DNA of 64,000 bases from the human T2T-CHM13v2.0 reference genome, Homo sapiens, in the NCBI RefSeq assembly GCF_009914755.1, contig NC_060930.1; one strand, given 5' to 3'. Under the pieces are notes generated by a model. That model had not been told where the DNA came from. It did no database searches and saw nothing but the letters and a program-made list of their open reading frames with translations. Of the stretch, positions 5,801-45,204 are shown in pieces (position 1 is the first letter of the stretch; the number at the start of each line of letters is the position of its first letter). The translations under genes were made by a program, and so were the position numbers.

Positions 5801-8042
5801 CCTTTAAAGAGATATACCTAATAAAAAATGTTATATTTACTAATATAGGCATCTCAGCACTGTTCTTTTGTGTAGATCCATACTTCCACCTGGTATCATT
5901 TACCTTCTGTCTGAAGGAAATCCTTGAATATTTCTTGTAATGTGGGTCTGCTCATGATAAGTTTACTCAGCTATTTTGCTTTACTTTTTGAAAGCTATAT
6001 TAACTTGATATAGAATTATATAACCAGACATCTGGTCCTGAAGAAATTTTTTTAATGCTCTCCTTTTACTCCAAATTGACTAATCTGAAAAATAAGGATT
6101 CCTCTGGGGATTAAATGTAGGGCTGTATATAAAAGCCTTTTGCAAAGAGTCAATCTCTAAGTAGAAAATATTAAATATTTTAAAAGGCAATTAATAGCAT
6201 ATAAAACAAACTATTCTAAGTAACTCAGAAGCTTAGTTTTTCTAGCTCCTAAATGATGTTAATTATGTATCAGAAAAATAATAAAACTTATTGTATACAA
6301 AATTATTATGTGATTCAGACTTTCAGTTAATTCAAACAGGTGTTGCCCACAAGTCATCTAAATTAGCAAGTTTTTACTGCAATGCTATTAAGTTGCACAG
6401 AAAAAATAAATAAATAGATCCAAAATGGGTATATTTGCTGATTTGAAATCTCATTATAAATTCTTATCATTAAATACACTCATTTTCTTCTTAGTCTCAT
6501 GTCAATTCTCTGCTTTCCTGACCTTGAAAGCAGGTATATTGCAGGTAGAAAACTATCATTCCCACTTAGGGGCTACAGTGAGATATGCTCAAATTTGGAA
6601 AGACGCTCCCCTTTTAATACTGAAAACAGTTAAAATTAAAGCATAAGCAGCATATCCTACTTCAGAAATGATCTATCAATCTATATATGAGCTCAGAAGC
6701 AAGTGACCTGACTCCAGAATCAGATTCAAATCCCAACTCCTCCACTTATTTCAGAGTGCGATTTGAAGCAAGTTAGTGCCCATTTCTCTACCTCTCCTTC
6801 CCTCTTGTTTTAATAGGGATACCAAAGGTCATACATTTGTAATATTCACACTCTAATGTCTTATGTAATATTTAATGGGAGGGTGAAGATATACAGTCAT
6901 TTTAGAGGAGAGAAGAACACAATTTCTGGTGGTATTTGTCCAGCACAGTTAAGAGTTAGAAAATACTTTCCTCCTAGAGATGGCTATCAGGTACCTGGAT
7001 AGAAAAAATGTCCAGACACAATTTATACAGCAAACACAATACTTTTGAACACCTAATTTAGGAACACCTAATCCAGGGCTGGTTCATCTAAGAGCCATAT
7101 AATCTACAATGTGATCTCCCAGCGTGAAATCAGTCATCAAAAGAAGTTAATAGACAGAACCAGGGAATTATCACCAATTATTCATGATAAGTCAGTCTCT
7201 TTTCAGCTTGTTTTATCATGAATCGGGCTCCTCAAAACAGATAAATCAAAATGTTAACCCTGCAAAATTCAAGATCCAGCAGTGGAATGGGGTGACATCA
7301 TCGATACTCTGAAAATCTGCCCTGACAAACTCTTGTTATGAGATCATAACAAGATTTTTCAACAAACAGACTTAAATTACCCACTATGTGCCAGGTACTA
7401 TGAGTATAACAAAGACACAATTCCTGCCTTCACATTCCAGCCAGGGAGGCAGAAGCCCAAATGCACTTGAATATGAGGCCAGCCTTATGACAAGTTACAA
7501 ACCAAGGGTTACAGAACAAAAAAGTATCAGAAATATTTGTAGATTCAACAAAATTTGTAAGTAGGAATCAAATGTAATTGTTTACCCTGAGTAAAAAAAA
7601 TGAGTAAAACCATATCAGGAGTATCTAATAAAATACTAGATACTCTTTAATGCAGCACAAAAATGACATAAAAAAAGGAAGGCAAAGTACCAAAACACAC
7701 TGAAGTTATGCAGTCCCTCAAGTATGGAAGATAAGATAACTATAATTACCATATTCTAAACAAAAGACACAGAGATTACATAATTTAAGGTTGAAGTACC
7801 ATATACTTTATTTATATACATTACTAAACTAAAAGTATGATAGTTCTGAACTTGGACTATGGACAACTGCCTGGGTCTTTCCGGTTTTTAAGCAAACATT
7901 AGATGAGATTCAAAGTTTTACTTGCAACCATCACAGAGAAAGAAAATGTCCTTCATTGGCTTTTTACAGATAGAAAGAGAGAAGAGCATTCATTTATTCA
8001 CTTCATGTGTGGTTTTATAATTTCCTCTTTAAAGGTAAGTCT

Positions 8043-8420
8043 AAATTTGAAAAATACATTTCCCAAAATGTTTCTATTTCCCTTTCTTAAAGACTTATGT
8101 TTCAATAACAGCTCCCAACCCACCCCTGTAATCCAAATCCTATTTGGTCCTGCAGTGAAGTTAAATGTAGGATCCTGACATCAATTTGTTGCCATGGAAA
8201 TAATTGAGATGTCAATGTTTCCGCATTATGACTGTACCATAGGAGCAGATGGGCTGACAAGGGGGAAAATCTGCAAATATCTCTCTAATAATTAGCCAAA
8301 ATATGAGGTAATATTCAAAATTTACATTATTATAAAAATCTGAGTCATATCTATCTAAATAGCACAGAATACAACCAATTTCAACTTCCAAGTTTACTAT
8401 GGAAAATACTTTCAAAGTAT
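8043..8420. promoter_or_regulatory. Imperfect palindromic element centred on an RFX X-box (possibly a MER121-like ancient repeat)
   Basis: TGACATC-AATT-TGTTGCCATGGAAAT-AATT-GAGATGTCA at 8176-8214, with weaker outer inverted symmetry. Confidence 0.5.
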
Positions 8421-15836: not shown

Positions 15837-17039
15837 ACAGATGGTCACACAACAGCTCCAGCACATTCCCCCGTGAGTACCTGTAACACCAGCATAACCA
15901 ACTCTTCCAACTTGTGACAAAGGACAAAATTCGAGCCATAACACCAATGTTATTTTTTTTTAATTTAGAAGAAAATAAAATAAGATCACTGAGATTTAAA
16001 AAAAAAGACAATAACAACACAAAAAAAACACTGCAGGTCTACAGGAGTTGCAATAACAGAGGTCACAAAGGCTATGGATGGAAAGATTAAAGACAATTTG
16101 TTCTCTCTCCCGGGTTTGTTTTTTGCTCTGAAAAAAGGTTTGGGATTTTGCCAAGGACAACCCTACACTATTCTGATGTATTAAAAGTCCTCATGCAAAG
16201 CAAATATGTCCTACAATAAAGCAGTCAAATAAAATTTATAATTTCCAACAAGAGCAGTTTGGTATGTTAAACCAATTGAGAGTAAAGACAAGGCTGAAAT
16301 GAACGTGGGACCCAGGGAAAGGTAGTGAAGATATAGAAAAGCTTTACGTAAAAAAAGTCTTCACACACTAAATCATGAAATAAAATGAAAATTTTAAAAG
16401 ATCATGAAGAGTTTTAATTAAACAAGTTGCTTTTTTTTCAACAATTTCAGGGTAAAAATAATTGTAAAACTTTGATATTAATTTTGCAAATCCATATTTT
16501 AAATTCAAATTCCTTTTGTTACTACTATAAGGCTATAAATAGCTCAATTTCAAACAATTTAATCTGTGGAAAGACAATTCTTATTATAAAATATTTGGGA
16601 ATTCCTTAGGGTTCTAAGTACAACCAAATCTATTCATATACCATGTTTAAAAAAAATGTAAAAATTATGGAAACGAATCAATAAGTTCCAAAGGTGAAGC
16701 TTGTTTCCAAGCACTAGTTCACTATTAACAATTGTCAGGGCTGACTTTATCACTTGTCCAGAACAAAATGAAAATGCAGGCCTTTTATTCAAACACCAGG
16801 AAAATGAATTCCTTTATCTTTCTTCCCAGGTGTCTCTCTCAACTTGTCACTTATTTTTTATTTGCTATTGAATGACAAGCTCTCTTGGGCATGGGACTAT
16901 CCATGAGGTGATTAGAGACCCTCACAGGTACCTGGGGCCCTGTATCATAACTCAGTAAATACTTACCAAACTCAACCATACCCACACCTGTGCCCAAGCT
17001 CCCACTAACCCACCCCAGGAAGGCAAGAGGCATGGGAGG

Positions 17040-17240
17040 CAGACCATATGTGAGCAGAGGGTCCAAGCCTCAAGCTCTCGGCCCATTGTCTCATGGGGCT
17101 TCATTTATAAAACCAAAATCAAAGATAAAATTAATAAAAATTTCAAGACAGTAATAACAGGATATTAAACCCCAAGTGTGGACCCTCTTCTGAATTTGGG
17201 ATCCTGTGTCACTGCACTGGTTGCCTGCCTAGGAAGCAAG
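17040..17240 (-). mobile_element. MER91-type hAT-Tip100 element
   Basis: aatttcaagacagtaataacaggatattaaacc...ctgtgtcactgcactggttgc resembles the MER91 reverse complement. Confidence 0.6.
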
Positions 17241-18442: not shown

Positions 18443-18863
18443 AGTGCAGTGTTAACAATGGCAAATCCTATCTTGCTAATGTTACTCAGTTTGATGTTGA
18501 GAGGGTAAGATAAATATCACATACAAAAAGAAGAAAGTAAACCCTGCACATAGATGAGAATTCTACAAAATAGCAAATGTTCACTTCCAGTGAGTTTAGA
18601 TATCCACTCCCAGAAGAACTACATCCTAACCGTAAGAAAACTTACAGATCTGTGTCATTGAAACCACTTTGTCTAAGGTCACTGATGACTTTCATATCAC
18701 CAACGCGAAGCATGTTTGCAGCCCTCACTCTTCTTCATATTTCAGCAAAATTCAATACCGGTGATCACTTACTTCTCTTCATGTTCTTGGCTTCCATTAT
18801 GTAAACGTACTAGTTTCTTCCAACCTTTCTGGCCACTCGTAGGTTTCCTTTGCAAATTCATAG

Positions 18864-19109
18864 TCCTCTCATTGGCCATTAAATGTTGGAATTTTTCCTT
18901 AGTATCAATAGCTTCAATTAGAAGCAAATGTAACTGTCCCATTAATCCTCTCATTGGCCATTAAATGTTGGAATTTTTCCTTAGTATCAATAGCTTCAAT
19001 TAGAAGCAAATGTAACTGTCCCATTAATCCTCTCATTGGCCATTAAATGTTGGAATTTTTCCTTAGTATCAATAGCTTCAATTAGAAGCAAATGTAACTG
19101 TCCCATTAA
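18864..19109. repeat. Perfect 82-bp x3 tandem repeat inside a probable L2 remnant
   Basis: Units start at 18864, 18946 and 19028 and are identical base for base. Confidence 0.97.
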
Positions 19110-19589
19110 AATTCTTAAAATTCCATAATCTAGATATAATCCTTTGCCCTCTACACCTATATATCCAACTACCTAATTGATTTCTTGACTTGAGTGTCAC
19201 TATAAACTCCATGAGGTCAAGGACCACATTTGCTTATATTCAGTATCCTGCGTCTAACATCTCGCACAACGCGTGGCAATTAGTGGACACACAAATTATT
19301 ATCAAATAAATAAATAAAGACTATTCTGATTAGAGAAATCTTAGTTGATGATGGAGAGGGCAACACTTTAACTGCTGATTGAGCCACCAGTACAAACGAA
19401 TTTGGGGCTCACAATTTGTAGGAATATTAACAGGCTGACATGCATATGTTACTAAACATGTATGCATATACACACACACAATCTTAGACCAAATTTCAGT
19501 CTGGCAGCATCACACAAATCCTGAATTTCAAGTTTTTAGTTAAATAAACTCTTCAATGGAAGTTTATTAGGGCCTTCATTTAAGAGCCT

Positions 19590-42237: not shown

Positions 42238-42902
42238 AACAGTATAAAACAATAATAGCTACCTCACATGACTGTGGTGATGATTAGATGTATTACTATA
42301 CAAGTGCCTGGCTCATGGGAAGTTCTATATAAATGCTTACTATTAGGCTAAGCCCCATTAAATTCACATGTCTAACAAGTATCCACAAATCACAGCATCA
42401 AGTGGATGAAAACAGACATTTGCAGTCTGTCTTTAAGATTTCTTGTATTGGGACAGTGATATCTTTGGGGATAAATGGAGGACACATCTTGCTGATAACA
42501 TCTATCTCAATTCAAAACATGGGTGGTTAATATAGAAATGTTAGTGGTTCCTAACAGGAGCAAAACCAATAGATAGCTTTGATTTTCTCACATTCCCAGT
42601 GGGACACAAAGGCTTTTTGTGTCTCAGGATTATGTGCTGATAAAGAATGCGGAAAGAATGTTTATGAGGAAGCAGACAAAAGCAGCCTGGCTCCGGTGTA
42701 TCCACACTTGGCAGCTGTAATGCAGTTTCGGCTACACCAATAATTTCCAATTATTTTTACCTGCAGTCAATTCTCAAGCTAGAAGACTGTGGTGAGAATA
42801 TGAGATTAATTTAGACAGGCTCAGGCACTCATGTGAACACCAAAATCTGCCACTAAAACAAACATCAGGCTTACATTAATCTATCATTTTTTTTCTCGTT
42901 AC

Positions 42903-43020
42903 CTTTTCAATCGCCCTTCATGATCCTGGCCAGGGTTCTGTGTGCGTGATAGATGGCGAATGGAATGGCAGACAGCAGCAGAACAACAGCAGCAAAAGTT
43001 ACCGACCACAAGCACAGACA
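42903..43020 (-). other. Probable 118-nt exon of the unidentified host gene (frame 1 encodes a TM-like peptide and a stop)
   Basis: Minus strand: ccgctttcgttttcag|TGTCTG...TTGAAAAG|gtaacg; GC- and CpG-enriched relative to the flanks; non-repetitive. Confidence 0.65.
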
Positions 43021-44451
43021 CTGAAAACGAAAGCGGCTTGGTAACTAACAGGCTAATCTTCACGGCAGGAAGAATACTTGGCAATGAAACTTCCCCTGGG
43101 AATTGATTCATTACTGTTCACATTTGTTTAAATGAATTTAACATAATCTTCTAATTGTGGAAGTCTGATCCTATCACTCCCCTGCCTATCTGCCTAAAAC
43201 TCTTCCATATCATCAGGTTGCCTCCAAGATAAAGTCATCATTCCCTTGCATAACACCCAAGGGTTTCATGATCTAGTCCCAACAAATTGCCACATTCATC
43301 TCTATTACAGAATCTTCAAAGATACCAGTAGCAGTTCCTAGTACCGTACTTCTGGGCCCTTCACATGCTGCCTTCTCTATCAAGAAAACCCTCCTCATTG
43401 GCTCTGATAACTGCTCTATGTCTTTGGTCTCAATGCTGATATCCCCTCCTAGGCAAATTCCATCCATCCACCCCCAACTGAGTAGTTTGCCTCTTCAGCA
43501 TGTTCCCAGAATACCCCAAATCTAACACTATTATGGGATATATCATACTGTTACATTGTACATATTTAAGCAACTGCCTACTCAAAATTTTCAAGAGAAC
43601 CTTGTAGCCTAACTATCCAAAAATGAAAATTCCAATATATTATGGTGGTTGAGATCAAGTATTTCTATATCAGACAGACCTGAGCTTGAAACTTATTTGT
43701 CTTTTATTACTCATATGGCCCCAAGAGAAGCTGTAACATGGAGACACAATAATATTTATTTTACGGGATTTTGAAGTATTTAATAAGTAAATACACTTGC
43801 CGCAGCACCTGGCATGAGGACAAGTTCATAGCTGTTATTTTCATGCTCAGTATCTAATTCATCTCCTACTACTCTATTGAATATAACCCACTCTTCAAGT
43901 TGGACTGTTTGGCCTGAAAATAGTCTTAAGTTTTCTCTTCAGCTGAAATACTCCATCTCCCAATCTTTGCATATGGAAACCCTTGCCTTCCAAAAACCCC
44001 TTGCTAGTGCCACACTTTCCACCTATCCTTTCCAAGCCTAGACCTGCTTTCTCCCTTCTCTTGGATAGCCCCCTTGTGCTTTTTGGAAAGGGCAGGAGAC
44101 ACTGATGTTTGCTCATTTTTGTGGCAACCCATACCCCAAATTTTCCCCCAATCCAGAGTGTGGTGTCCCATGTGCCACCAAAATGTAAGTATTTTAGAAG
44201 CCGGAATATGTGTTTTTATTGCTCTCTAACAATATCTGGCACATGGTAGGCACTCAACAATATATGTTAAATGAATGAGTGAGTTGGCTGTTTCTATTGC
44301 AAAAGAAAGCCAGCATTCACCTCCTTTACTTTTTCCTAAGAGCAAATTCTATTGACCAAAATTCACTAAAAACTGGAAATTAAAACTGCAATTTTTAAAA
44401 ATTTATTACATACGAACATCTCAAGCCCAGTCAATGTACCCCCCGCTAACT

Positions 44452-44800
<349 letters not shown>

Positions 44801-45204
44801 CTATACTTATACTGTGGTCAATTCATAGAACTAGAAGAGAGTTTAGAAATCACCAAATGCAAATGCTTTATTTTAACCACATGGTAAACAAGCACAATGG
44901 GTGACTTGGTGTCATCAAGGCACTTTTCCTCCATCTCTTCATCTGGAAACTCCAAAGGTAACTGTCCCCTCATCTATGATGCTTTATCCAACTTCTCCAG
45001 ATACAGCCAGTAACTCTGTCATCTGCCTTCTCTAAGCACTTCATTTCTACGTGAGTTATAACATTTATCTACATGTCCATTTCTCCAAACAGACTGAAGC
45101 TCCTAGAGGGCAAAACCTAAACAAAGCCTAACATAGTGCTGGTACACACTAGTGGTTTACCACATTGGTTAACGTTAAATATAGACAAACAGTAGTTACT
45201 AGAA

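What the first reader, a model, noticed from the sequence alone, without database searches (positions are those of the whole stretch)
42903..43020. Exon encoding a transmembrane helix, basic tail and stop: candidate tail-anchored microprotein or alternative membrane-anchoring C-terminus
Seen: a minus-strand exon with canonical acceptor and donor. Its frame 1 reads CLCLWSVTFAAVVLLLSAIPFAIY-HAHRTLARIMKGD*, about 22 uninterrupted apolar residues followed by a short His/Arg/Lys-rich tail and TGA 4 nt before the donor. Codons look coding-like (CTG CTG CTG, TTC GCC ATC) and CpGs are retained in CpG-poor surroundings. Established: a C-terminal TM helix with basic flank is the targeting signal of tail-anchored proteins (mitochondrial outer membrane, peroxisome, ER). 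Inference: this frame has no upstream ATG (the ORF track misses it), so it needs a phase-0 upstream exon. It could be the end of a spliced uORF microprotein in a long 5' UTR, or an alternative C-terminus that anchors the host protein to a membrane.
Basis: partly seen in the sequence, partly recalled or inferred. Interest (0 to 1): 0.8.

Follow-up and report, generated by a model that had tools for sequence, protein, structure and literature searches.

The report
Known frameshifting PTPRK intron-1 cassette exon
The flagged stretch is a real, already catalogued minor exon in the first intron of the human PTPRK gene that shifts the reading frame and ends the protein early; the membrane-helix reading lies in a frame that no known transcript translates.

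Summary
Window 43020..42903 (minus strand) is a 118-nt segment bounded by AG and GT. Its frame 1 reads CLCLWSV...IMKGD, then TGA 4 nt before the donor. It lies in the densest CpG cluster of the unmasked window.

It is a real exon, but it is not read in that frame. It lies 28.4 kb into the 122.6-kb intron 1 of PTPRK. PTPRK exon 1 ends in phase 1, so the canonical ATG reads the exon in frame 3 (VSVLVVGNFCCCC...GRLK).

118 is not a multiple of 3, so exon 2 is shifted and a TGA starts at its 14th base, 107 nt before the next junction. A public 77-aa record, 'PTPRK isoform 9 [Pan troglodytes]', matches my in-silico human splice product at 75 of 77 residues, with both junction codons exact. This is the layout of an NMD-type ('poison') cassette exon.

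- Frame 1 has no ATG in the exon before the helix.
- The matching frame of exon 1 has no ATG after the uORF's stop.
- Frame 1 has no relative in a 5.8-billion-protein library.
- It is absent from the one Ribo-seq ORF table I could search.
- Its hydrophobic run sits on a CTG/GCT-rich stretch.
- One other place in the window holds a chance pseudo-exon with an equally helix-like frame.

Verdict: already known, ordinary, low interest.

The parts
42903..43020 (-). 118-nt cassette exon of PTPRK, lying between canonical exons 1 and 2. From the canonical ATG it is read in frame 3: (G)TG TCT GTG ... AAA AG.
   Evidence: Sequence. Splicing human exon 1 + this segment + exon 2 in silico gives a 77-aa ORF that is 75 of 77 identical to the public record 'PTPRK isoform 9 [Pan troglodytes]', with both junction codons exact.
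43021..43036 (-). Acceptor: pyrimidine tract CCGCTTTCGTTTTCAG ending in AG. It holds two CpGs.
   Evidence: The rough matrix score is 3.56 bits, against 8.5 for the PTPRK exon-2 acceptor.
42897..42902 (-). Donor GTAACG, preceded by AAG. Position +5 is C rather than the consensus G.
   Evidence: The rough matrix score is 3.19 bits, against 9.25 and 6.72 for the PTPRK exon-1 and exon-2 donors.
42907..42909 (-). TGA that closes frame 1, the helix-like frame. It is out of frame for the annotated reading.
42949..43020 (-). Frame-1 hydrophobic run CLCLWSVTFAAVVLLLSAIPFAIY. It sits on a CTG/GCT-rich stretch that contains a short imperfect tandem at 42968-42992.
   Evidence: the frame means are 2.43, 1.60 and 1.86, so two of the three frames reach 1.8 or more; tandem of period 11, 2.4 copies.
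42897..43064 (.). Cluster of 8 CpGs centred on the exon and its splice sites.
   Evidence: 8 observed against 1.61 expected. It is the densest unmasked 170-bp stretch of the window.

Best explanation
The segment is a minor cassette exon of PTPRK, 28.4 kb into the 122.6-kb first intron.

When it is spliced between exon 1 (the signal-peptide exon, ending in phase 1) and exon 2, ribosomes starting at the canonical ATG read it in frame 3. Because it is 118 nt long (3n+1), it shifts exon 2. A TGA then starts at the 14th base of exon 2, 107 nt before the exon 2/3 junction and far upstream of the remaining exons.

By the established 50-55-nt rule, such an mRNA is a substrate for nonsense-mediated decay. 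Inclusion is therefore unproductive: a 'poison' exon that lowers output of full-length PTPRK. At most it yields a 77-aa signal-peptide-bearing stub.

The frame-1 'transmembrane helix + basic tail + stop' is an untranslated off-frame reading of a T- and CTG-rich stretch.

Shown here: the boundaries, the phases, the frameshift, the position of the stop, and the existence of a public isoform model with exactly this structure.

Inferred: NMD itself, low inclusion (from the moderate splice-site scores), and whether inclusion is regulated or is splicing noise. I lean towards low-level, largely unregulated inclusion.
For: - Exon 1 reads ATG...TCC GCA G|gtgagt: 100 nt from the ATG, so phase 1.
- Exon 2 was located with Pfam MAM (PF00629) at G000:C6:129590723-129590833, a weak match of E 1.77, and read. 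The normal exon 1 + exon 2 splice gives the expected MAM-domain start (control).
- Exon 1 + the 118-nt exon + exon 2 gives MDTT...QFSA VSVLVVGNFCCCCSAAVCHSIRHLSRTQNPGQDHEGRLK RWLYF*. That is 77 aa, and the stop ends 107 nt before the next junction.
- The library search with the frame-3 ORF returned one protein: P0001, 77 aa, 'PTPRK isoform 9 [Pan troglodytes]', from ncbi/uniref/nr, E 4.5e-17.
- P0001 is 75 of 77 identical to the human in-silico product. Both junction codons are exact: A|V needs G+TG, and K|R needs AG+G.
- The two human/chimpanzee differences, R55C and G69R, are both amino-acid changes in frame 3 within 39 exon codons. The 38 residues from exons 1 and 2 show none. This fits a product under no protein-level constraint.
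- The splice-site scores are moderate, which fits a minor exon.
- RefSeq's selected transcript has no exon in the window (hub table).
Against: - I saw no RNA evidence. There were no junction reads, no PSI values and no NMD-inhibition data.
- The only support for splicing is one public protein model from another species. Its provenance I could not check, so it may be a computed projection or prediction.
- The CpG cluster hints at constraint or germline hypomethylation. A mere noise exon does not explain it.
- Cross-species conservation beyond chimpanzee could not be tested.
- None of the other 16 library representatives with E up to 0.001 carries the exon. I read 14 of them; all 16 were run by tblastn against the window and the two fetched PTPRK loci.
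- No paper found mentions this exon.
Confidence: 0.75

Rival explanations
1. Frame 1 is translated, from an unseen phase-0 upstream exon or from a non-AUG start in exon 1. This would give a small protein that ends in a transmembrane helix with a basic tail, in tail-anchored geometry.
For: - The frame-1 run has a Kyte-Doolittle mean of 2.43 over 19 residues, followed by a 13-residue His/Arg/Lys-rich tail and a stop.
- The phase-0 frame of exon 1 is open for 85 codons and contains CTG and TTG codons.
- Both human/chimpanzee differences fall on third positions of frame 1. One (TTC to TTT) is synonymous there. The other is synonymous if the change was G to A.
- That pattern is biased: only changes that alter frame 3 can be seen in a protein record, so chance alone gives about 1 in 4.
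Against: - Frame 1 of the exon has no ATG before the helix, and the phase-0 frame of exon 1 has none either.
- The exon-1 uORF is in that frame but stops 255 nt before the donor.
- The main ATG has G at -3 and G at +4, which is not a leaky context.
- No relative among proteins of 24-79 or 80-2000 residues in the 5.8-billion library, none in the genome itself, and no Pfam family.
- The motifs are absent from the 5 held supplementary files of PMC10032668.
- The hydrophobicity comes from a CTG/GCT-rich stretch.
- An equally helix-like chance pseudo-exon exists at 17224..17014.
- Three of the 4 exonic CpGs straddle codon positions 3|1 of frame 1, where C-to-T decay would be silent. Protein-level selection in frame 1 would therefore not explain their retention.
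Confidence: 0.03
2. The annotated 77-aa frame-3 product is itself functional. It would be a signal peptide followed by a Cys-rich hydrophobic stretch (VSVLVVGNFCCCCSAAVC) and a basic tail, that is, a small secreted or single-pass membrane peptide that escapes NMD.
For: - The ORF starts at the strong canonical ATG and carries PTPRK's own signal peptide.
- The frame-3 stretch has a Kyte-Doolittle mean of 1.86.
- Three of the 4 exonic CpGs are positions 1-2 of Arg codons (CGC, CGC, CGA) in this frame, where decay would change the residue.
Against: - There are two amino-acid differences from chimpanzee in 39 codons. One is the loss of one of those Arg CpGs. This is not the pattern of a constrained protein.
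- The stop position predicts NMD.
- No Pfam family.
- No relative other than the chimpanzee record.
- Not among the PTPRK ORFs in the Ribo-seq table searched.
Confidence: 0.05
3. The exon model is a computational artefact or a one-off splicing event. What matters at this place is then a non-coding regulatory element, or nothing at all, and that would account for the CpG cluster.
For: - The splice-site scores are only moderate, and 70 comparable pseudo-exons exist in the window.
- CpG enrichment spans the exon plus about 45 nt of upstream flank, as a hypomethylated or constrained element would.
- No RefSeq exon is listed here (hub table).
- No paper mentions it.
Against: - A public record uses exactly these two boundaries out of thousands of AG and GT sites. 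That is hard to get without transcript evidence somewhere in the annotation chain.
- The CpG cluster is centred on the exon and includes both splice sites.
Confidence: 0.12

Closest known systems
NMD-coupled ('poison') cassette exons in long introns. The class is known from SR-protein genes and SCN1A exon 20N; those examples are recalled, not from a call.
   Same: - It is a cassette between constitutive exons.
- Its length is not a multiple of 3.
- Its premature stop lies well over 55 nt before a downstream junction.
- It sits deep in a very long first intron.
   Different: - No evidence here of regulation or deep conservation.
- Two differences from chimpanzee in 118 nt.
- Its splice sites are only moderate.
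- It sits directly after the signal-peptide exon, so any surviving product is a 77-aa stub.
Tail-anchored membrane proteins, such as SEC61B, cytochrome b5 and the BCL2 family (examples recalled).
   Same: In frame 1 there is one hydrophobic stretch of about 22-24 residues, then a 13-residue basic tail and a stop.
   Different: - No start codon, no N-terminal domain and no homologues.
- The frame is not the one reached from the host gene's ATG.
- The known upstream exon encodes a signal peptide, which tail-anchored proteins lack.
Intronic pseudo-exons: AG...GT pairs that look like exons but are normally not spliced (a concept recalled from the splicing literature).
   Same: It has moderate sites, and 70 comparable pairs lie in the same 64 kb. 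One other place also has a helix-like frame.
   Different: This one appears in a public isoform model with exact junctions. It also lies in the window's densest unmasked CpG cluster.

Membership tests
NMD-type (poison) cassette exon | Spliced between two constitutive exons at AG/GT boundaries | tested here: met
   The 77-aa public PTPRK isoform record has junction codons that require 43020 as acceptor and 42903 as donor. This is indirect: it is a protein model from chimpanzee, and I saw no RNA reads.
NMD-type (poison) cassette exon | Inclusion introduces a premature stop, by frameshift or an in-frame stop | tested here: met
   118 nt = 3n+1. A TGA starts at the 14th base of exon 2.
NMD-type (poison) cassette exon | The stop lies more than 50-55 nt upstream of a downstream exon junction | tested here: met
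   The stop ends 107 nt before the exon 2/3 junction. The selected transcript has 30 exons (hub table).
NMD-type (poison) cassette exon | The inclusion isoform rises when NMD is blocked | not testable with these tools
   No expression data were available. The supplement of the NMD transcript database paper (PMC11404449) could not be opened.
NMD-type (poison) cassette exon | Sequence conservation of the exon and its flanks, as expected for regulated poison exons | tested here: inconclusive
   The CpG cluster is suggestive. However, there are at least 2 nucleotide differences from chimpanzee in 118 nt, one of them at a CpG. No other vertebrate DNA was available.
Tail-anchored membrane protein | A translated ORF with a start codon and an N-terminal cytosolic part | tested here: not met
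   Frame 1 has no ATG before the helix. The phase-0 frame of exon 1 has no ATG in its 85 open codons, and the uORF in that frame stops early.
Tail-anchored membrane protein | A single hydrophobic helix within about 30 residues of the C-terminus, with a short, often basic tail | tested here: met
   The Kyte-Doolittle mean is 2.43 over 19 residues, followed by a 13-residue tail with 2 Arg, 1 Lys and 2 His. It is met in silico only, and such runs occur at 20 places in the window by chance.
Tail-anchored membrane protein | No N-terminal signal peptide; post-translational insertion | tested here: not met
   The only known upstream exon is PTPRK exon 1, which encodes the signal peptide. The insertion route is not testable here.
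Spliced uORF microprotein | An upstream ATG whose frame runs across the exon junction into this exon | tested here: not met
   The PTPRK uORF (c6riboseqorf123 in the supplement of PMC10032668) is in the right frame. It ends at a TAG inside exon 1, 255 nt before the donor.

The most novel reading that the evidence does not exclude
The exon is dual-use. Besides acting as a frameshifting cassette of PTPRK, its frame 1 would be translated in some transcript, through an unannotated phase-0 first exon in intron 1 or a CTG start in exon 1. That would yield a small membrane-anchored peptide of about 40-70 residues. The CpG retention would then reflect constraint on this reading.
Probability: 0.03. Interest if true: 0.5.

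Novelty: already known. Interest (0 to 1): 0.12.

Why it matters
It matters little as a discovery. An exon with exactly these boundaries already sits in a public PTPRK isoform record, and its expected effect is ordinary unproductive splicing.

It is useful as a caution. A T- and CTG-rich exon gives helix-like peptides in off-frames, and the phase of the upstream exon settles which frame counts.

If inclusion proved to be regulated, it would be one way to tune the dose of PTPRK. PTPRK is a receptor phosphatase whose exon 1 is also the 5' partner in PTPRK-RSPO3 fusions (recalled, not from a call).

The CpG cluster remains the one feature not fully explained.

Tried and rejected
**Paralogue or repeat origin.** DNA and both peptides match only their own locus in the genome at meaningful E-values. 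The four other frame-3 matches have E 1.4-9.9. Rejected.

**Known RNA family or structured RNA.** There is no Rfam match on the exon; the three sub-threshold matches lie elsewhere. The fold is weaker than that of shuffled sequence, z +1.98. Rejected.

**Mitochondrial insert.** Considered because of the hydrophobic peptide. Set aside on base composition: T 36, G 30, C 30, A 22 on the coding strand, so G is not depleted. This rests on recalled mtDNA composition and was not tested by search.

**Protein family.** Pfam gave nothing for either exon peptide. For P0001 it gave only a sub-threshold DUF4131 match, E 0.16.

**Orthologous exon in other mammals through protein records.**
- 17 representatives had E up to 0.001, and I read 14 of the 16 besides P0001.
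- All were run by tblastn against the window and the exon-1 and exon-2 loci.
- Most of the 14 read on from exon 1 into intron 1; two (P0005, P0008) run through exon 2; the tails of P0002 and P0012 could not be placed. None but P0001 maps to the exon.
- A resemblance I thought I saw between P0012 and the exon did not hold up.
- P0003 and P0007 (554 and 591 aa, repetitive, 27-32% identity) were not read.

**Literature.**
- 'PTPRK' + 'poison exon': 0 papers.
- 'PTPRK' + 'cryptic exon': 2 papers. One concerns a different PTPRK exon with 90% inclusion; I saw passages only. For the other I saw the listing only.
- 'PTPRK' + 'microprotein': 2 papers held, 1 listed, unrelated by its abstract.
- 'PTPRK' + 'nonsense-mediated decay' + 'exon inclusion': 2 papers, listing only. 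One is the same paper as.
- 'PTPRK' + 'intron 1' + 'novel exon': 0 papers.

They may list this isoform or a peptide from it.

Full report
**1. The observation**

Read on the minus strand, window 43020..42903 is a 118-nt segment. It is preceded by ccgctttcgttttcag and followed by gtaacg.

Frame 1 is CLCLWSVTFAAVVLLLSAIPFAIYHAHRTLARIMKGD, then TGA, then AAAG, then the GT. The best 19-residue Kyte-Doolittle mean is 2.43.

CpG retention is also real.
- The exon has CpG observed/expected 0.52, against 0.18 for the window.
- Eight CpGs lie between 42897 and 43064, with none in the 160-280 nt on either side.
- The five sliding 170-bp windows with 7 CpGs, out of 5,534 unmasked ones, are all here. Outside this cluster the highest count is 5.
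- After correction for G+C, 8 are seen where 1.61 are expected. The Poisson P is 2.7e-4, or 0.086 expected per 322 windows.

**2. Is it more than chance?**

The CpG cluster is, mildly. The splice-like ends and the helix-like frame are not.

- A rough position-weight matrix, with frequencies recalled rather than taken from a tool, scores the acceptor 3.56 and the donor 3.19 bits.
- The real PTPRK sites score 9.25 (exon-1 donor), 8.5 (exon-2 acceptor) and 6.72 (exon-2 donor).
- 134 of 4,188 minus-strand AG sites and 87 of 3,633 GT sites do at least as well.
- 42 minus-strand and 30 plus-strand pseudo-exons of 50-250 nt have both sites at least as good, the candidate included.
- Twenty places in the six frames of the window carry a 19-mer at least as hydrophobic.
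- Of 70 such pseudo-exons of 60-250 nt, 3 have a frame with a mean of at least 2.42. These are two places: this one and 17224..17014/16988. 12 have a mean of at least 1.6.
- The hydrophobic core sits on a CTG/GCT-rich stretch with a short imperfect tandem at 42968-42992. The other two frames are also apolar, with means of 1.60 and 1.86.

**3. Where it lies**

The hub table places the window inside PTPRK on the minus strand, with no exon of the selected RefSeq transcript.

I fetched the DNA above the window and read exon 1.
- The ATG is at window 71497.
- The last exon base is at 71398, and the donor is gtgagt.
- From ATG to exon end is 100 nt, so the exon ends in phase 1.

A Pfam MAM search of the window's own genome placed the start of the MAM domain at G000:C6:129590723-129590833, a weak match of E 1.77, and the next MAM exon at 129515149-129515433. 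I fetched and read exon 2. It is 123 nt, ttttctcctag|GTGGCTGTAC...CCCCAAG|gtgaga.

Intron 1 is therefore about 122.6 kb. The flagged exon lies 28.4 kb below the exon-1 donor.

**4. What it is**

Spliced behind exon 1, the exon is read as G|TG TCT GTG ... AAA AG|. This is frame 3, VSVLVVGNFCCCCSAAVCHSIRHLSRTQNPGQDHEGRLK, which is open throughout.

Because 118 = 3n+1, exon 2 is then read as AG|G TGG CTG TAC TTT TGA. The result is a 77-aa ORF whose stop ends 107 nt before the exon 2/3 junction. The control splice of exon 1 + exon 2 gives the normal ...QFSAGGCTFDDGPGACDYH....

The last of my three library searches used the 72-aa frame-3 stop-to-stop ORF. It returned exactly one protein: P0001, 77 aa, named by its sources 'PTPRK isoform 9 [Pan troglodytes]', E 4.5e-17.

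Its sequence equals the human in-silico product at 75 of 77 positions. That includes both junction codons and the five shifted residues RWLYF from exon 2.

I recall that chimpanzee records named 'GENE isoform N' come from an annotation that projects human GENCODE transcripts and adds long-read models. If so, a human transcript with this exon probably exists in GENCODE. I could not check that.

**5. How it most likely works**

By the established rule, a stop more than 50-55 nt upstream of an exon junction marks an mRNA for nonsense-mediated decay. Inclusion of this exon is therefore unproductive: a 'poison' cassette exon.

- Shown: the boundaries, the phases, the frameshift, the stop position and the public model.
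- Inferred: decay itself, and low inclusion (from the moderate sites and its absence from the selected RefSeq transcript).
- Open: whether inclusion is regulated.

The two human/chimpanzee differences, R55C (CGC to TGC, at one of the exon's CpGs) and G69R, both change the frame-3 protein within 39 codons. The 38 residues from exons 1 and 2 are identical. That argues against a constrained 77-aa product. It also shows that the CpGs here are not immune to decay.

**6. The helix-like frame**

Frame 1 needs a phase-0 upstream exon.
- In exon 1, the phase-0 frame is open for 85 codons but has no ATG, only CTG and TTG.
- The exon-1 uORF lies in that very frame. It ends at a TAG 255 nt before the donor.
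- The same uORF, MESCRRGRPATLATLSPLR*, is the only occurrence of 'PTPRK' in the five held supplementary files of PMC10032668, where it is listed as c6riboseqorf123. According to that paper's abstract as listed, the study covers 7,264 catalogued human sORFs. Two motifs of the frame-1 peptide are absent from those files.
- The main ATG has G at -3 and +4.

Searches with the 45-aa frame-1 stop-to-stop ORF found nothing among proteins of 24-79 or 80-2000 residues. The hit shows that the library does hold vertebrate NCBI/UniRef records. Nothing was found in the genome itself, and nothing in Pfam.

Both human/chimpanzee differences fall on third positions of frame 1. However, only changes that alter frame 3 are visible in a protein record, so chance alone gives about 1 in 4. 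I give this no weight.

As an 'alternative C-terminus of the host protein' the exon also fails. It follows only the signal-peptide exon, and it is read in another frame.

**7. What remains unexplained**

The CpG cluster is unexplained. It may be constraint on a regulated exon, local germline hypomethylation from an overlapping regulatory element, or an outlier (0.086 expected per window).

I had no DNA of other vertebrates. The 16 other library representatives that matched P0001 do so through the signal peptide. The 14 I read are mostly read-throughs into intron 1, with two exon-2 forms and two whose tails could not be placed, and none maps to this exon.

**8. Comparison and novelty**

It works like an NMD-coupled cassette exon. 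It meets the three structural criteria tested here; the response to blocking NMD and the conservation could not be tested.

It is not a tail-anchored protein. The defining requirement of a translated ORF with an N-terminal part was tested and not met.

No paper I could find mentions the exon. The supplements of two papers that might list it could not be opened.

Since a public record already contains the exon in its spliced context, I rate it as already known, and of low interest.

Noticed in passing
window 17224..17014 (also 17224..16988), minus strand: A second pseudo-exon whose AG and GT sites score at least as well as the finding's. It has an equally helix-like frame (Kyte-Doolittle 2.48) but only 1 CpG, so it is a chance look-alike.
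   Followed up: no
L003 about 7712..7653 (window about 71712..71653), minus strand, outside the window: PTPRK exon-1 uORF MESCRRGRPATLATLSPLR*. It is listed as c6riboseqorf123 ('primatomorpha - young', de novo) in the supplement of PMC10032668. It lies in the frame that would feed frame 1 of the exon, but it stops inside exon 1.
   Followed up: partly
window 44400-44802: A masked, CpG-rich repeat with sub-threshold Rfam matches to Metazoa_SRP (25 bits against a 70-bit cut-off) and mir-619. This is as expected of an Alu element.
   Followed up: no
L003 about 6000-8250 (window about 70000-72250), outside the window: A CpG island over PTPRK exon 1 and its promoter, with up to 38 CpGs per 250 bp.
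   Followed up: no
L003 7398 downwards (intron 1 next to exon 1): Ten public short 'PTPRK' proteins from other mammals (P0004, P0006, P0009, P0010, P0011, P0013-P0017) continue from exon 1 into sequence that aligns with the start of human intron 1. They look like read-through or partial models.
   Followed up: partly
window 18671-18870 and 19231-19420: Two further unmasked stretches with 5 CpGs per 170 bp, the next densest after the exon. I did not examine them.
   Followed up: no
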